A stretch of 10,595 nt of DNA from a virus. Its lineage: Duplodnaviria > Heunggongvirae > Uroviricota > Caudoviricetes. The first letter of the stretch is position 1. Each line of letters starts with the position of its first letter. The position numbers were made by a program, and so were the translations under genes. Below are positions 7,080-10,595 of the stretch, piece by piece. The notes beneath the pieces were generated by a model, which did not search any database, had not been told where the DNA came from, and saw only the letters and a program-made list of their open reading frames with translations. The DNA is taken from IMG/VR virus record IMGVR_UViG_2740892219_000002. One strand, 5' to 3'.

Positions 7080-7282
7080 AACCTCACTCCCAGCGGACGA
7101 CGGCGACGTCGGGTTGTCCCCAGTACCGACTCCGCATCATTGATCGCCCGGTTAAGCTCATCCAGAGAAGCCGCCGTATATTCAATTCTGCGACCATCTT
7201 TCTGGACAGACACCACCCGTTTACCGGTTAATAAATCAAGGCGCGCCTGACGCAGCGCCTGCAGTTCAGCGACTGTAACCAT
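7076..7282 (-). CDS. W: Head-tail joining / head completion protein, lambda gpW-like (68 aa)
   Basis: 68-aa ORF, same length as lambda gpW, with the conserved core TGKRV..VQKDGRR.E.TA.S and a C-terminal RRRRP.G motif. GGAGGAG lies upstream of the ATG at 7282. Sits between the large terminase and portal genes as in lambda. Confidence 0.85.
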   Translation of the reverse strand: MVTVAELQALRQARLDLLTGKRVVSVQKDGRRIEYTAASLDELNRAINDAESVLGTTRRRRRPLGVRL

Positions 7283-9194
7283 TCACTCCTCCGGACAGCT
7301 TCGCTGCCAGTTCTTTCAGGGTTGGCCGGGTCGTCTCTTCTTCCCGGGATTTTGCCAGTACAGCCAGATCAAGCTGCCAGCGTTGCACGGACACACGTAA
7401 TGCCGCGTAGGCATACACCAGGCAGTCCAGCGCTTCGTTACGCCGCTTTTTGTTATCCCACAGCAGACGCATCTTTCCTTTTTCCCACTTCTCCACAAGC
7501 TCTTCCGCGACCAGTTGCTGCGCCTCTGTCTGCGAAAAAATCTCCGGATCATCAGGAAAACGGATGGCATACGACGTGGATTCATCCGCAGGCGTGGGAG
7601 CGGCTTTCATACGGGCATAGAGAATTTCTTTTGCGGTGTCTGTCCCCACTTCACACAGATACACACCCCGCTGATTGCGGGTTTTTGGCATGGTGATCAC
7701 CGGCTTGCCATAGACAGATGCGCCTTTTACCGGCAGCACCCGGAAAACACCGTGTTTTTTTGACCTCTGATAAACGATTTCGCCATCGATCCCCCCGATG
7801 TCCCAGCAGACACGGGAAATGGTCATTTCGGTTCCGTCTGCATGGCGGTATTTTTTGTTGATCGCCGCATCCACACGTAACAGCGTCTCTTCCTCATCGG
7901 GACGTCCCATAATGATGATTTTATCCACCAGAAAGGCTTCCTCTCCCGGAGCCCATCCCCAGACATACATCTCAAAACGGTTTCGCTGCGAGTCAATGCC
8001 CGCCGTCAGATAAACCACCCGGGCTGGCACCGCCGCCGTGTAATGCACAACCTTATCCATCAGTACCTGGTGATCGAGTTTTTCGCCCACGGCCTCTTCC
8101 CAGGTCTCGCCCAGCGTGGTGTTAACAAAAGTTTTCAGACCGTTGGGATCTTTCAGTGCATCCAGCCAGTCATAGACAATCTGTACCCAGGTGGTGAACG
8201 GACTGTACGCCGTCCAGATATGGAAAGTGATGGAGCGCGGCGGCGGAATTTCATCCCCCCGGGCGCTGAAAAACATCAGGCCGTCACGGGTCCACATGCT
8301 CGTGTTTTCACAGATCCACCGCCCGTTACTCTGGTCAAGCTCAGACTGATGGATCACACAGCCATGATGCTCACAAAGGTAGAAAACACTTTCTGGCTTA
8401 TTCTTCTCCCACTTAAGACCGAAAGGCGAGGCATCATCGCCAAATTTCAGATACTGCGCCTCCCCACAGTGCGGACAGGGCACGTAAAAACGCATGAAAT
8501 GTGCCGACTCGTTAGCGGCTTTTTCGATCTGGCAGGAGCCTTTGATTTTAGGCGTCGAGCCGCGAATGGATTTTGGCCATACAGAGCCCTCAATACGTTT
8601 ATCCCCCAGCAGGGTTGGCGACCCCTCTTTTTCAACATCCGGTTCGAACGAGGAAAGCTCGTCATAACAGACCACATCCACGGATTTTTCACGGTAGTTT
8701 TTGGCGGCAGCGCCGCCCAGGCACCAGAAGCCCACACCCGATGAAAAGCGTTTCAGCGTGAGAGTATTGTCACGATGTTTACGACCCAGCCATGGGGAAA
8801 GGTCTTTCAGGCATGGCACGTCCCGAATCGTCGCCTCCACGTGAGACTTCATAAAATCTTCAGCGGCAGAATCCGTGGGCTGAAAAAGCAGACTGTTTCG
8901 GGATTTATGCTCAATAAAATACCCGACCACCCCCAGCAACATCTTTGTATAGCCAACACGGGCAGATTTAATCAGATTAACAGTGCGGATCTGATCATTC
9001 CCCATACTGTTCATGATGGCGATCTGGAATGGCAGCGTTTTCCATTCGCCGTCACCGTATGAGGATTCTTTAGGCAGATAATAATTTTGATCAGCCCATT
9101 CAACTGCCGTCATCGGTACAACCCTGACCAGAGGCTGCAGCGCAACCGAAACGGCAGCCATCATATTATTCAGTTGTTGCTCTGATATATTCAT
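7266..9194 (-). CDS. A: Terminase large subunit, lambda gpA-like (642 aa). Start placed at the ATG at 9194.
   Basis: Extensive conservation with lambda gpA as I recall it (TAVEWADQNYYLPKESSY, KSARVGYTKMLLG, HVE.TIRD, KHRDNTLT.KRF, FWCLGG.AAKNYREKSVDV, FLGDKRIEGSVWPKSIRGSTPK, HFMRF.V.CPHCGE.QYLKFGD, YLCEH..CVI.Q.ELD, FHIWTAYSPFTTWVQIV, FVNTTLGETWE, YLTAGIDSQ, GKPV..MP, KKRRNEALDC.VYA.AALR). Length from 9194 is 642 aa against 641 for lambda. Overlaps the end of the Nu1 homologue by 29 nt, as lambda Nu1/A overlap. Confidence 0.93.
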   Translation of the reverse strand: MNISEQQLNNMMAAVSVALQPLVRVVPMTAVEWADQNYYLPKESSYGDGEWKTLPFQIAIMNSMGNDQIRTVNLIKSARVGYTKMLLGVVGYFIEHKSRNSLLFQPTDSAAEDFMKSHVEATIRDVPCLKDLSPWLGRKHRDNTLTLKRFSSGVGFWCLGGAAAKNYREKSVDVVCYDELSSFEPDVEKEGSPTLLGDKRIEGSVWPKSIRGSTPKIKGSCQIEKAANESAHFMRFYVPCPHCGEAQYLKFGDDASPFGLKWEKNKPESVFYLCEHHGCVIHQSELDQSNGRWICENTSMWTRDGLMFFSARGDEIPPPRSITFHIWTAYSPFTTWVQIVYDWLDALKDPNGLKTFVNTTLGETWEEAVGEKLDHQVLMDKVVHYTAAVPARVVYLTAGIDSQRNRFEMYVWGWAPGEEAFLVDKIIIMGRPDEEETLLRVDAAINKKYRHADGTEMTISRVCWDIGGIDGEIVYQRSKKHGVFRVLPVKGASVYGKPVITMPKTRNQRGVYLCEVGTDTAKEILYARMKAAPTPADESTSYAIRFPDDPEIFSQTEAQQLVAEELVEKWEKGKMRLLWDNKKRRNEALDCLVYAYAALRVSVQRWQLDLAVLAKSREEETTRPTLKELAAKLSGGVNGYSR

Positions 9195-9675
9195 CGAGTA
9201 AATCCGGTAATTTATCCCCTGCCCGCGCACACTGATTTGCCCCCTTCGCAATAAGGGTTTTCAGATGGTCAAGATGGCGCGGTGTTAAATCAGGAAACTG
9301 TCGCTGCATGGATAAAGGGATGGAATCAAGCGTACTGGATAACGCCATTGCCAGCTTACTGAGGGCAAAAATACAGAATCCGGTGTCAATAAGCTTTCCT
9401 TCGGACGCCTGATTTTTTAATTGCTGGGCGATTGCCTGTTCTTCGATCAACTTCCATCTGGCAATGAGTAACTTTTCTTCATAGTCGTCTTCGCTATCGC
9501 CATCAGGCACATCGTTTTTACTTCTCCTCAGATACGATATGTAAAAATCACGCCAGGCATCCAGATCCAGTTGTCCTCGCTTATTCGAGACCGGAGCACC
9601 CGGCAATTTCTGCAATCTGCGAAGCTGGCGATCGGTCAGACTCAAATGCCTGGCAACTTCAGTCTGCGTAGCCAC
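9166..9675 (-). CDS. Nu1: Terminase small subunit, lambda gpNu1-like (169 aa). Apparent GTG start at 9675.
   Basis: C-terminal half aligns with lambda Nu1 as I recall it (ETAFC.F.LS...IAS.LD.IPLS.QR.FP.L..RH.D.LK, then ..LP.LL.EYI). The N-terminus has a helix-turn-helix-like segment (EVARHLSLTDRQLRRL). The ORF begins 195 nt from the cos end (lambda: 191). GAGG lies 6 nt upstream of the GTG. The N-terminal region is diverged from lambda. Confidence 0.82.
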   Translation of the reverse strand: MATQTEVARHLSLTDRQLRRLQKLPGAPVSNKRGQLDLDAWRDFYISYLRRSKNDVPDGDSEDDYEEKLLIARWKLIEEQAIAQQLKNQASEGKLIDTGFCIFALSKLAMALSSTLDSIPLSMQRQFPDLTPRHLDHLKTLIAKGANQCARAGDKLPDLLDEYIRATTE

Positions 9676-9722
9676 TCCTCACCTCGCAAAAACTCTTACC
9701 TCACAATCAGCACAAAACCGGT

Positions 9723-9821
9723 CATGTCCGGTTTATATGTCTATTTTTTGCGCATGTCCGGTTCACGGAAAACCTGTTTTTATATTTTTTATGTAGTTAA
9801 CTTGCAGAGAAACCGGACATG
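9723..9821 (-). promoter_or_regulatory. cosB-like region containing three copies of an 11-bp element, CATGTCCGGTT: direct at 9723-9733 and 9753-9763, inverted at 9811-9821. Candidate small-terminase binding sites, analogous to lambda R1, R2 and R3. The A/T-rich stretch between the second and third copies may be an IHF bending site.
   Basis: Repeats seen directly. Arrangement (one inverted copy nearest cosN, A/T-rich spacer, two direct copies, then the Nu1 start) mirrors the lambda cosB layout (established knowledge). I did not find a clean IHF consensus (WATCAANNNNTTR) by eye. Confidence 0.55.
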
Positions 9822-9858
9822 GTTCCCGGAAAATTTTCATAAATAGCGAAAAACCGCG

Positions 9859-9870
9859 AGGTCGCCGCCC
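9859..9870 (-). other. cosN cohesive-end sequence. On the minus strand this reads GGGCGGCGACCT, identical to the 12-nt single-stranded end of lambda DNA.
   Basis: Plus strand 9859-9870 is aggtcgccgccc (seen). The reverse complement of 9826-9870 reads GGGCGGCGACCTCGCGGTTTTTCGCTATTTATGAAAATTTTCCGG, matching the beginning of the lambda genome as I recall it over about 45 nt with one difference. Located 184-195 nt upstream of the Nu1 start, as in lambda. Confidence 0.85.
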
Positions 9871-9945
9871 CGTAGCCTGCCGGATCGCTGGAAAGGACCC
9901 AGCTACTAGCGAATGCCAGTAGCCAAGGTGGGCTGCGGGCTTAAT

Positions 9946-10191
9946 TTAAAGCGGTGTGATTTGCAACCATTCAGACGCACTAATCTCAAAGCGACGTCCG
10001 TTAGACAACTCGATAATCACGGGTAATTCACCTAGCTCCAGCCAGGCGTTTTTTTCCGTTGGAAAACTAACAGTAGAGATCTGGTAATCCAATACGCTTT
10101 CAGCCAGTCGGCAACTTTTAAACACATCACCAAGGGCGGACGCGAAGAATACATTTAGCTCATATTCAATCTGCTCTTTAGCAGCTGTCAT
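9946..10191 (-). CDS. Hypothetical 81-aa protein, the last gene before cos (phage right end). Function unknown; not recognised.
   Basis: Uninterrupted 81-aa ORF with protein-like, acidic composition and no obvious transmembrane segment. Same strand as the late genes. Ribosome-binding site is weak (GAG about 9 nt upstream). The segment looks AT-richer than the structural genes by eye. Confidence 0.5.
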   Translation of the reverse strand: MTAAKEQIEYELNVFFASALGDVFKSCRLAESVLDYQISTVSFPTEKNAWLELGELPVIIELSNGRRFEISASEWLQITPL

Positions 10192-10434: not shown

Positions 10435-10595
10435 CACAACCTCCTGACAAATATACCGTGCGACCGTGGTCGCACGCTCCTGAATACATGCCCTGTTTCT
10501 TCCACCCTCGCACAGGACTGGCGAGCATGAGGGACAAACCCGCGAATCATTAGCGCGGTAAAAACCCGGTGTGCATCGTTTTTGATTATTTCCGC
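10434..10595 (-). CDS. 3' end of an ORF that enters from beyond the window edge (C-terminus ...AEIIKNDAHRVFTALMIRGFVPHARQSCARVEETGHVFRSVRPRSHGIFVRRL), stop TGA at 10436-10434. Identity unknown.
   Basis: Minus-strand frame is open from the window edge to the TGA that overlaps the start of the 36-aa ORF. Coding status is uncertain: the composition is Arg-rich and could be a chance open frame. Confidence 0.2.
   Translation of the reverse strand, partial: AEIIKNDAHRVFTALMIRGFVPHARQSCARVEETGHVFRSVRPRSHGIFVRRL
10458..10475. promoter_or_regulatory. Perfect 8-bp inverted repeat with a 2-bp spacer (GTGCGACC-GT-GGTCGCAC), immediately upstream of a TATATT -10-like hexamer (minus strand, 10455-10450) and the AGGAGG site. 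Operator-like.
   Basis: Palindrome and -10-like hexamer seen directly. No good -35 hexamer at 17-bp spacing. Function is inference. Confidence 0.3.

What the first reader, a model, noticed from the sequence alone, without database searches (positions are those of the whole stretch)
9676..9870. Lambda-identical cosN paired with a distinct set of cosB repeats
The 12-nt cohesive-end sequence and about 45 nt of flanking sequence match lambda as I recall it. Where lambda has its R3/R2/R1 Nu1-binding elements, this sequence has three copies of a different 11-bp element (CATGTCCGGTT; one inverted near cosN, two direct near the Nu1 start). The N-terminal DNA-binding region of the Nu1 homologue is likewise diverged from lambda. 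This is consistent with co-evolved packaging specificity (small terminase plus cosB) on a conserved nicking site, as described for lambda versus phage 21.
Basis: partly seen in the sequence, partly recalled or inferred. Interest (0 to 1): 0.45.

Follow-up and report, generated by a model that had tools for sequence, protein, structure and literature searches.

The report
Fourth lambda-type packaging-specificity cos site
This is the DNA-packaging start site (cos) of a lambda-like prophage: it keeps lambda's exact cutting site but pairs it with its own recognition repeats and a matching small-terminase DNA-binding domain, a common pairing nobody appears to have characterised, and one that pathogenicity-island satellites have copied.

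Summary
On the minus strand the window carries cosQ, a lambda-identical 12-nt cosN, and 31 of 32 identical bases to its right. It then has three exact copies of CATGTCCGGTT at cos positions 50, 108 (inverted) and 138 (inverted). A fourth copy with one mismatch lies at 145.

The layout matches the R3–R2–R1 arrangement of lambda and phage 21. The element is not one of theirs, but it shares a core with both (C-R-T-K-T-C-S-G).

The small terminase is only 23–26% identical to lambda and 21 in its N-terminal winged helix-turn-helix. It belongs to a separate, widespread "MATQ…" DNA-binding-domain family. Every relative I examined has an ATGTCCGGTT or ATTTCCGGTT element 50–53 bp from the cos end.

The cassette (cosB, terS and the 5' end of terL) is grafted onto 97% phage-21-like head genes. 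It occurs in about 21% of complete E. coli genomes and in the PhiR12 phages.

The best reading is a predicted fourth specificity class, after lambda, 21 and N15/Monarch. Specificity itself is untested.

One unexpected result: the same cosQ-to-R1 block is one of the two cos sites, probably "cos2", of the EcCICFT073 pathogenicity island. The purpose of that island's two cos sites is an open published question.

The parts
9894..9900 (-). cosQ-like heptamer GGGTCCT, 30 nt upstream of cosN
   Evidence: Identical to lambda, 21 and PhiR12 in the alignment. It lies inside the stretch the phage 21 record annotates as R4, the putative signal for terminal cos cleavage. It is also the left boundary of the block shared with the PICI cos.
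9859..9870 (-). cosN, the 12-nt cohesive-end sequence GGGCGGCGACCT
   Evidence: Single exact match in the window. 12/12 with lambda and with 21. Invariant in 43 variants.
9827..9858 (-). Conserved right flank of cosN (cos positions 13-44), covering the position that phage 21 annotates as the I2 IHF site
   Evidence: 31/32 identical to lambda and 29/32 to 21. Only 3 variable columns in 43 variants. The 21 record annotates I2 at the equivalent place.
9811..9821 (-). R3-like box CATGTCCGGTT (cos positions 50-60)
   Evidence: Exact copy. Invariant in 43 variants. The same element lies at positions 50-53 in all distant relatives of this small-terminase family.
9764..9810 (-). A/T-rich spacer between R3 and R2 (70% A+T, with A6 and A5 tracts); presumed bend or IHF region
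   Evidence: Composition comparable to the lambda and 21 spacers. No WATCAANNNNTTR match at 2 mismatches or fewer, unlike lambda and 21.
9753..9763 (+). R2-like box, inverted relative to R3 (cos positions 108-118)
   Evidence: Exact copy. Exact at this offset in 105 of 115 scanned sites. An inverted copy lies at 108-109 in distant relatives L091 and L093.
9723..9733 (+). R1-like box, exact copy, inverted (cos positions 138-148)
   Evidence: It is the last element inside the block shared with the PICI cos; homology stops at position 148.
9716..9726 (-). R1-like box in direct orientation, one mismatch (CATGACCGGTT, cos positions 145-155). It overlaps the previous box to form a near-palindrome.
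   Evidence: Present in 91 of 115 scanned sites. Its orientation matches R1 of lambda and 21, at 147 against 155-156.
9166..9675 (-). Small terminase (Nu1 homologue), 169 aa, GTG start 195 nt after the first base of cosN
   Evidence: Pfam Phage_Nu1 at 1.7e-19 over residues 49-150. PHROG 57 'terminase small subunit' over the full length. RefSeq annotates the same gene as terminase small subunit.
9514..9675 (-). N-terminal DNA-binding domain (residues 1-54). The helix-turn-helix spans residues 3-23, with recognition helix TDRQLRRLQK.
   Evidence: Not covered by the Phage_Nu1 profile. AlphaFold2 model, pLDDT 79, shows helix 4-10, helix 15-22, short strands, then helix 38-54. Best Foldseek matches are MerR/excisionase-type winged HTH domains, including terminase DNA-binding domains, 6hn7 and 1j9i, all at weak E-values. 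43 family members found among 1.8 billion representative proteins.
7266..9197 (-). Large terminase (gpA homologue), ATG at 9197. The first ~30-70 codons belong to the specificity cassette; the rest is phage 21-like.
   Evidence: Translation. 97% nucleotide identity to phage 21 begins at window position 9112 and runs downward. N-terminal comparison and sliding identity.

Best explanation
The region 9716-9900 (minus strand) is a complete lambda-type cos site. Its cosB consists of binding sites for the prophage's own small terminase.

Proposed mechanism:
1. The winged helix-turn-helix of the small terminase (recognition helix TDRQLRRLQK) reads the CATGTCCGGTT boxes.
2. A dimer docks on the oppositely oriented R3 (position 50) and R2 (position 108) boxes across a bent, A/T-rich 47-bp spacer.
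3. This positions the large terminase to nick the lambda-identical cosN about 50 bp away. The large terminase is held through its N-terminal segment, which co-travels with the small terminase.
4. The R1 near-palindrome helps stabilise the post-cleavage complex.

Because both the boxes and the recognition helix differ from lambda, 21 and N15/Monarch, the cassette (cosB, terS and the 5' end of terL) most likely defines a fourth packaging specificity on a shared nicking site.

Shown here: the anatomy, its conservation, the co-variation of boxes with domain type, and the mosaic boundaries. Inferred: binding, bending, and lack of cross-packaging with other classes.
For: - Exact repeats far above chance, and a cosN identical to lambda.
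- Box positions and orientations match lambda and 21. Core starts are 52/111/147 here, 54/114/156 in lambda and 55/112/155 in 21.
- Boxes are conserved and spacers variable in 43 variants: 9 of 40 box columns vary against 53 of 110 non-box columns, Fisher p = 0.005, not corrected for phylogeny.
- 103 of 115 sites with cosN plus this box are followed by this small-terminase type, with an invariant recognition helix.
- Different classes carry different boxes on the same cosN: lambda, 21, N15, and Monarch-like L005/L006.
- Distant family members keep the box at positions 50-53 with unrelated flanks. One is Aeromonas phage phiARM81ld, whose GenBank record begins with a cosN-like 12-mer (GGGCGTTAGACC). 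Two others have an inverted copy exactly 58 bp further on.
- The N-terminal domain models as a MerR-like winged HTH resembling lambda gpNu1 and the Rpp/TerS domains.
- The cassette boundary falls inside the N-terminus of terL. By established lambda/21 genetics, that is where the large terminase binds the small one.
- The cassette is present in the PhiR12_1 to PhiR12_5 phage records, which list K-12 or E. coli C as host.
- EcCICFT073-family islands carry exactly the cosQ-to-R1 block. An allele at the same slot carries an N15/Monarch-type cosB instead.
Against: - There is no binding, end-mapping or packaging data for this class.
- No IHF consensus was found in the R3-R2 spacer at 2 mismatches or fewer, though lambda and 21 have one at 1 mismatch.
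- R3 lies about 3 bp closer to cosN than in lambda and 21. In lambda this spacing is critical (PMC4669245).
- The box shares CATGTC..GG with the phage 21 boxes, so some cross-recognition with 21 cannot be excluded.
- The structure matches are all statistically weak, E > 0.1.
- Most copies are in prophages, which may be defective.
- The sequences used in the conservation test are closely related.
Confidence: 0.8

Rival explanations
1. The boxes are small-terminase sites, but the class is not functionally separate. Because its core resembles the phage 21 and lambda R boxes, this terminase and the 21 (or lambda) terminase cross-package each other's DNA. N15 terminase, for example, packages lambda DNA.
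For: The shared core: CATGTCCG against CGTGTCGG (21) and CGTTTCCG (lambda), 6 of 8 each. Arginine sits at the equivalent recognition-helix position in both 21 (R21) and this protein (R20). A published precedent for asymmetric cross-packaging exists, N15 on lambda DNA (PMC4669245).
Against: The recognition helix differs at nearly every position. The DNA-binding domain is 23-26% identical. The wing is 11 residues shorter. The register is shifted by 3 bp. Lambda and 21 discriminate more than 1000-fold with far smaller differences (PMC4669245). The PICI keeps a dedicated copy of this cosB as an alternative to a Monarch-type one.
Confidence: 0.13
2. The repeats bind a protein other than the small terminase, such as a host factor, a regulator of late genes, or an Rpp-like redirecting protein. 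The co-occurrence with this small-terminase type would then reflect only linkage.
For: No direct binding data exist. The boxes also occur next to an rpp gene in PICIs.
Against: The box stays at a fixed distance from the cos end across relatives whose only shared feature is the small-terminase DNA-binding domain. In the 'simple cosB' relatives it lies only about 10-15 nt upstream of the terS start codon. Published swaps show that Rpp-dependent recognition maps to the other PICI cos (PMC6739421). No candidate regulator gene is linked to the boxes.
Confidence: 0.04
3. The inverted repeats act at the RNA level on the late transcript, as a hairpin or terminator-like element affecting Nu1 translation, or they are chance or relic repeats.
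For: The inverted arms can pair. One terminator-like hairpin overlaps R3.
Against: RNA folding is no better than shuffled sequence, z = -1.29. Terminator-like hits are near the chance level, 3 found against 1.1 +/- 1.0 expected. Three exact 11-mers in 100 bp cannot be chance. In PICIs the block is conserved in a different transcriptional context.
Confidence: 0.03

Closest known systems
Phage 21 cos / gp1 (21 packaging specificity)
   Same: Identical cosQ and cosN. Three R boxes with R2 inverted, at nearly the same coordinates. The box begins CATGTC. Arginine at the equivalent recognition-helix position. The head genes of this window downstream of terL codon ~30-70 are 97% identical to phage 21.
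   Different: The box is CATGTCCGGTT, not CATGTCGG(A/G)CC. The small terminase is 23% identical in the N-terminal domain and 35% elsewhere. The wing is 11 residues shorter. R3 lies 3 bp closer to cosN. There is an extra inverted R1 copy. No 1-mismatch IHF consensus.
Lambda cos / gpNu1
   Same: cosN 12/12 and the next 32 bp 31/32 identical. Same cosQ, R3 - bend region - R2 - R1 architecture. Nu1-type C-terminal domain (Pfam PF07471). terS overlaps terL.
   Different: R boxes are CGTTTCC(G/T)TT in lambda. The N-terminal domain is not matched by the Nu1 profile and is 26% identical.
N15 / Monarch packaging class (Feiss et al. 2015, PMC4669245)
   Same: A precedent for a further specificity class on a lambda-like cosN, existing in both 'simple' (single R3) and 'complex' (three R) forms. 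The MATQ family found here shows the same simple/complex dichotomy.
   Different: The N15/Monarch box is GGTTGTTGTT and its helix is SVQAFDKW. That class is experimentally documented; this one is not.
EcCICFT073 PICI cos sites (Fillol-Salom 2018 and 2019; Murialdo & Feiss 2022)
   Same: One of the island's two cos sites is the same cosQ-cosN-R3-R2-R1 block as in this window and PhiR12, with boxes at positions 50, 108 and 138.
   Different: The island has no terminase genes. Its other cos, next to rppA, has no repeats and is read by the Rpp-TerS heterodimer. Homology with the phage cos ends at position 148, and the direct R1 copy is absent.

Membership tests
Lambda-type cos site (cosQ-cosN-cosB) | 12-nt cohesive-end sequence matching lambda-like phages | tested here: met
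   GGGCGGCGACCT at 9859-9870 (-), 12/12 with lambda and 21.
Lambda-type cos site (cosQ-cosN-cosB) | Conserved cosQ heptamer about 30 bp upstream of cosN | tested here: met
   GGGTCCT at 9894-9900 (-), identical in lambda, 21 and PhiR12.
Lambda-type cos site (cosQ-cosN-cosB) | Complex cosB: three R boxes between cosN and terS, with R2 opposite in orientation to R3 and R1 | tested here: met
   Boxes at positions 50 (direct), 108 (inverted) and 145 (direct, 1 mismatch), plus an extra exact inverted copy at 138.
Lambda-type cos site (cosQ-cosN-cosB) | IHF site (I1) between R3 and R2 | tested here: inconclusive
   No WATCAANNNNTTR match at 2 mismatches or fewer in the spacer, whereas lambda and 21 match at 1 mismatch. 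The spacer is 70% A+T with A-tracts.
Lambda-type cos site (cosQ-cosN-cosB) | Immediately followed by terS (Nu1-type) and terL (gpA-type) genes | tested here: met
   Nu1 homologue at 9166-9675 and gpA homologue at 7266-9197.
Lambda-type cos site (cosQ-cosN-cosB) | Virion DNA ends are 5' 12-nt overhangs generated at cosN | not testable with these tools
   This needs end sequencing of virion DNA. The only indirect support is that the record of a distant family member, phiARM81ld, begins with a cosN-like 12-mer.
Lambda packaging specificity | R boxes with the core CGTTTCC and the gpNu1 recognition helix (RTIQNWQEQ) | tested here: not met
   The boxes are CATGTCCGGTT and the helix is DRQLRRLQK. The N-terminal domain is 26% identical.
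Phage 21 packaging specificity | R boxes with C(A/G)TGTCGG and the gp1 recognition helix (RTIERWQSQ) | tested here: not met
   The boxes differ (CCGGTT against GG(A/G)CC after CATGTC). The N-terminal domain is 23% identical.
N15/Monarch packaging specificity | R box GGTTGTTGTT and a small-terminase N-terminus MAxLLNKSDMASSxGISVQAFDKWG | tested here: not met
   Both are absent from the window. They are present in L005/L006 and in N15.
Pfam PF07471 Phage_Nu1 | Score above the gathering threshold | tested here: met
   70.5 bits against a cutoff of 30, but only residues 49-150 align, to profile positions 62-163.
MerR/excisionase-like winged HTH (the fold of the gpNu1 DNA-binding domain) | Helix-turn-helix plus beta wing plus a long third helix; structural similarity to 1J9I or 6HN7 | tested here: inconclusive
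   The AF2 model (pLDDT 79) has the expected elements. Top Foldseek hits are RdfS, RacA, the terminase DNA-binding domain 7lw0, 6hn7_B (TM 0.65) and 1j9i (TM 0.59), but every E-value exceeds 0.1. Relatives give sub-threshold HTH_17/MerR_1 hits.

The most novel reading that the evidence does not exclude
The window-type cosB marks a fourth, functionally separate packaging class of lambda-like phages. The second cos site (probably 'cos2') of EcCICFT073-family pathogenicity islands would be a faithful copy of that class's packaging signal. In other island alleles the same slot is swapped for a Monarch/N15-type cosB.

The island would then have two routes into capsids: Rpp-mediated redirection of lambda-, 80- and 21-type terminases at cos1, and direct mimicry at cos2 for helpers whose diverged small terminase Rpp may not be able to bind. 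[quoted passage not shown]' (PMC6739421).
Probability: 0.5. Interest if true: 0.65.

Novelty: new member of a known kind. Interest (0 to 1): 0.5.

Why it matters
Only three cosB/small-terminase specificities are documented for lambda-like phages: lambda, 21 and N15. The field itself has noted how little diversity has been sampled (PMC4669245).

This cassette is in about one in five complete E. coli genomes and is often present in several copies per genome, O157:H7 included. It therefore probably determines which prophages, defective prophages and satellites can be co-packaged in pathogenic strains.

It also supplies natural box/helix variant pairs for working out the recognition code. Arg20 goes with ATGTCCGG, and Asn, Asp or Thr at that position goes with ATTTCCGG, paralleling R21/G56 in phage 21 and N21/T56 in lambda.

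Finally, it gives a concrete, testable explanation for the second cos site of EcCICFT073-type pathogenicity islands, using phages (PhiR12 series) whose records list laboratory E. coli hosts.

Tried and rejected
- A word-indexed homologue search with the N-terminal 68 aa returned only E. coli fragments and no diversity. The exhaustive HMMER search was needed.
- The genome-contig scan gave only 4 loci. Two were IS-truncated remnants (L007, L008) and were not informative.
- Foldseek on the full-length, single-sequence AF2 model returned helical-bundle artefacts. Only the domain model built from an alignment was usable.
- phmmer of the whole protein against PDB found nothing relevant. The profile search found only generic HTH matches.
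- A literature search for the 11-mer returned unrelated papers.
- RNA-structure and promoter/terminator explanations were tested and rejected.
- The IHF consensus scan was negative at 2 mismatches or fewer.
- Automatic cosN detection in distant relatives was unreliable, so anchors were set by hand from the cosQ and TTATGAAAA landmarks.
- L156, with two window-type cos sites 5.5 kb apart, looks like two adjacent or misjoined prophage fragments and was not pursued.
- I could not find the paper describing the PhiR12 phages.

Full report
**Orientation and anatomy**

The window is a lambda-like head-gene region read backwards, so the genes lie on the minus strand. In gene orientation the order is as follows.
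- cosQ: GGGTCCT, 9900-9894.
- cosN: the 12-nt GGGCGGCGACCT, 9870-9859, the only copy in the window.
- A conserved right flank of cosN.
- Four copies of an 11-bp element.
- A GTG-initiated 169-aa Nu1 homologue, 9675-9166.
- A gpA homologue starting at 9197.

Compared with lambda, cosN is 12/12, cos positions 13-44 are 31/32 and positions -31 to -1 are 26/31. Beyond position 44 identity is random, 19/77.

**The repeats**

CATGTCCGGTT occurs exactly three times in 10.6 kb, all within 100 bp.
- Cos positions 50-60, direct in gene orientation (window 9821-9811).
- Cos positions 108-118, inverted (9763-9753).
- Cos positions 138-148, inverted (9733-9723).

A fourth, direct copy with one mismatch lies at 145-155 (9726-9716). 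It overlaps the third copy to give the near-palindrome AAACCGGACATGACCGGTTT. An exact 11-mer is expected about 0.005 times by chance in this window (my arithmetic).

**Comparison with lambda and phage 21**

The phage 21 GenBank record annotates R3, I1, R2 and R1. The 6-bp cores compare as follows.

| Phage | R3 (direct) | R2 (inverted) | R1 (direct) |
|---|---|---|---|
| Lambda | 54 | 114 | 156 |
| 21 | 55 | 112 | 155 |
| This window | 52 | 111 | 147, plus an extra inverted copy at 141 |

The architecture is therefore the "complex cosB" described for lambda-like phages (PMC4669245).

The element is related to the known boxes. With a 3-bp shift, CATGTCCG matches 6 of 8 bases of both the lambda core CGTTTCCG and the 21 core CGTGTCGG. 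At the two base pairs that discriminate lambda from 21 (56 and 59; PMC4669245), it carries the 21 base at one and the lambda base at the other. That last point follows from my alignment and is an inference.

A canonical IHF consensus is present at 1 mismatch in the lambda and 21 spacers. It is absent here at 2 mismatches or fewer. The spacer is 70% A+T with A-tracts.

**The small terminase**

- Pfam Phage_Nu1 matches only residues 49-150. PHROG 57 'terminase small subunit' covers the whole protein.
- The N-terminal 48 residues are 26% identical to lambda and 23% to 21. The remainder is 38% and 35% identical. Lambda and 21 are 51-54% identical to each other.
- The wing region is 11 residues shorter than in lambda.
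- An exhaustive HMMER search with residues 1-67 found 43 relatives. They share the signature MATQxEIAxHLxLSxRQxRxL..G.P...GRG..DLDA.R..YI.YLR, fused either to Nu1-type or to other C-terminal domains.
- An AF2 model of the domain (pLDDT 79) shows helix, turn, helix, a short wing, then a long helix.
- Its best structural matches are MerR/excisionase-type winged HTH domains. They include small-terminase DNA-binding domains, the TerS/RppC complex 6HN7 and lambda gpNu1 1J9I, all at weak E-values.

**Conservation and co-variation**

*Close relatives.* In 43 distinct IMG/VR variants of this locus the boxes stay at offsets 50, 108 and 138. R3 is invariant, and substitutions concentrate in the spacers.

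*Reverse scan.* Scanning IMG/VR for cosN followed 37 nt later by the box gave 115 usable sites. Of these, 103 are followed by this small-terminase type with an invariant recognition helix.

*Other classes.* Lambda, 21 and N15 lack the box. Two Escherichia loci (L005, L006) have the same cosN and a 71%-identical small-terminase C-terminus. Their N-terminus is N15/Monarch-type, and they carry GGTTGTTGTT boxes in the direct-inverted-direct layout.

*Distant members of the MATQ family.* Their flanks cannot be aligned with the window, yet all keep the element 50-53 bp from the cos end.
- L091 has an N15-like cosN, GATGTCCGGTT at position 50 and an inverted copy at 108.
- L093 has a different cohesive end, with CATTTCCGGTT at 51, an inverted copy at 109 and a direct copy at 142.
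- Four 'simple cosB' relatives have a single box immediately upstream of terS. In three of them (L097, L099, L101) it can be placed at positions 52-53. One of these is Aeromonas phage phiARM81ld, whose record begins with a cosN-like 12-mer.

*A box/helix pairing.* Where helix residue 20 is Arg, the box reads ATGTCCGG (the window and PhiR12 lineage, and L091). Where it is Asn, Asp or Thr, the box reads ATTTCCGG or GATTCCGG (six lineages). This parallels 21 (R21, G at bp 56) and lambda (N21, T at bp 56). It is suggestive only, because few lineages are independent.

**Mosaic structure and distribution**

Head genes from window position 9112 downward are 97% identical to phage 21. cosB, terS and the first ~30-70 codons of terL are not, and instead match the PhiR12_1 to PhiR12_5 phages at about 92-93% identity. 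That boundary fits established lambda/21 genetics, in which the C-terminus of the small terminase binds the N-terminus of the large terminase.

The cassette is present at 80% coverage or more in 1141 of 5426 complete E. coli genomes, with up to 8 places per genome. O157:H7 strains typically have 3-5. The PhiR12 records list K-12 MG1655 or E. coli C as host, which implies infectious virions that use this cassette. That is an inference from record metadata.

**Literature**

Feiss et al. 2015 state that three specificities (lambda, 21, N15) are documented and that diversity is under-sampled. I found no paper in the held library that describes this box or class. The library covers open-access papers only.

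**The satellite link**

The 12 reverse-scan sites that lack the small terminase are EcCICFT073-family PICIs.
- Gene content: integrase, primase, a gpE-like capsid protein, a gpD-like decoration protein, and a 144-aa protein with E = 5e-31 to RppC, PDB 6HLK.
- In these elements, and in E. coli CFT073 itself, rppA is flanked by two convergent cos sites.
- The first cos has its cosN at NC_004431.1:1387558, with the rpp start 102 nt downstream and no repeats. This fits the published description of the Rpp-dependent cos1.
- The second cos has its cosN at 1388308. It carries CATGTCCGGTT at position 50, an inverted copy at 108 and an inverted copy with one mismatch at 138.
- Homology with the PhiR12/window cos runs exactly from cosQ to position 148 and stops on both sides.
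- In strain 300709 the same slot holds an N15/Monarch-type cosB instead.

The Penadés group reported two functional cos sites. They could not identify a phage cosB in them, found that cos2 is not required for transfer by lambda or phage 80, and asked why some PICIs have two cos sites.

My inference is that the second site, probably cos2, mimics the packaging signal of this fourth class, or of the Monarch class in other alleles. The assignment of the names cos1 and cos2 rests on the published descriptions, not on their figures.

**Verdict**

This is a new, unusually common member of a known kind of system. Functional specificity remains to be shown by experiment.

Noticed in passing
L222 (NC_004431.1 1385005-1390855, reverse complement), cosN at locus 2548 (+) and 3298 (-); also L102, L103, L110, L111, L125, L144, L174, L214, L224: EcCICFT073-family PICIs carry two convergent cos sites flanking rppA. 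One has the same cosQ-cosN-R3-R2-R1 block as this window, with boxes at positions 50, 108 and 138. The double-cos arrangement is present in 53 of 5426 complete E. coli genomes, including CFT073 and 042.
   Followed up: partly
L223 (NZ_CP025903.1 1895743-1897814), cosN at locus 648 (+): An allelic PICI has the same rpp and Rpp-dependent cos, but its second cos carries N15/Monarch-type boxes (GGTTGTTGTT, with an inverted ACAACAACC) instead of CATGTCCGGTT. The slot behaves like a swappable cassette that mimics a helper phage.
   Followed up: partly
window 9607-9669 (-) and the R boxes; loci L091, L093, L097-L101: Recognition-helix residue 20 co-varies with box position 4. Arg goes with ATGTCCGG, and Asn, Asp or Thr goes with ATTTCCGG. 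This parallels 21 (R21, G56) and lambda (N21, T56). Few lineages are independent.
   Followed up: partly
window ~9000-9197 (-), junction near 9112: There is a mosaic junction inside the 5' end of terL. Upstream of it the sequence is PhiR12-like. Downstream, the whole head operon is 97% identical to phage 21.
   Followed up: yes
L005, L006 (E. albertii NBRC 107761; Escherichia sp. MOD1-EC7003): These are Monarch-like loci. They have a lambda-identical cosN, three GGTTGTTGTT boxes in direct-inverted-direct order, and an N15-type small-terminase N-terminus fused to a C-terminus close to that of this window.
   Followed up: partly
L097, L098, L099 (Aeromonas phage phiARM81ld), L100 (Pseudomonas phage LPPA33), L101 (Escherichia phage vB_EcoM-705R4): In the same DNA-binding-domain family these are 'simple cosB' forms. 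A single box, ATTTCCGGTTCCGGT, contains a 6-bp tandem duplication. Where cosN can be placed (L097, L099, L101), terS starts only 78-80 nt from the cos end. This mirrors the N15 versus Monarch dichotomy.
   Followed up: partly
window 9901-9960 and 9946-10191 (-), 10457-10476 (-): Immediately outside cosQ the window differs from almost all relatives. Most have ...GATAATTATTATC... there. An 81-aa ORF with no Pfam, PHROG or NCBIfam hit follows, and further out a strong terminator-like hairpin (8 bp, 6 of them GC). Only 2 complete E. coli genomes share this right-end segment.
   Followed up: partly
L029 (IMG/VR): In this variant the R1 region is replaced or interrupted by an insertion of about 26 bp (…GGACATGATGCCGTGC…), while R3 and R2 are kept. 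It may be a degenerate prophage copy.
   Followed up: no
L007, L008 (Shigella flexneri SFBU1023; E. coli ECMA0423): The small-terminase gene of this type is truncated at residue ~68 by an upstream IS3-family transposase. cos is lost, so these are defective remnants.
   Followed up: no
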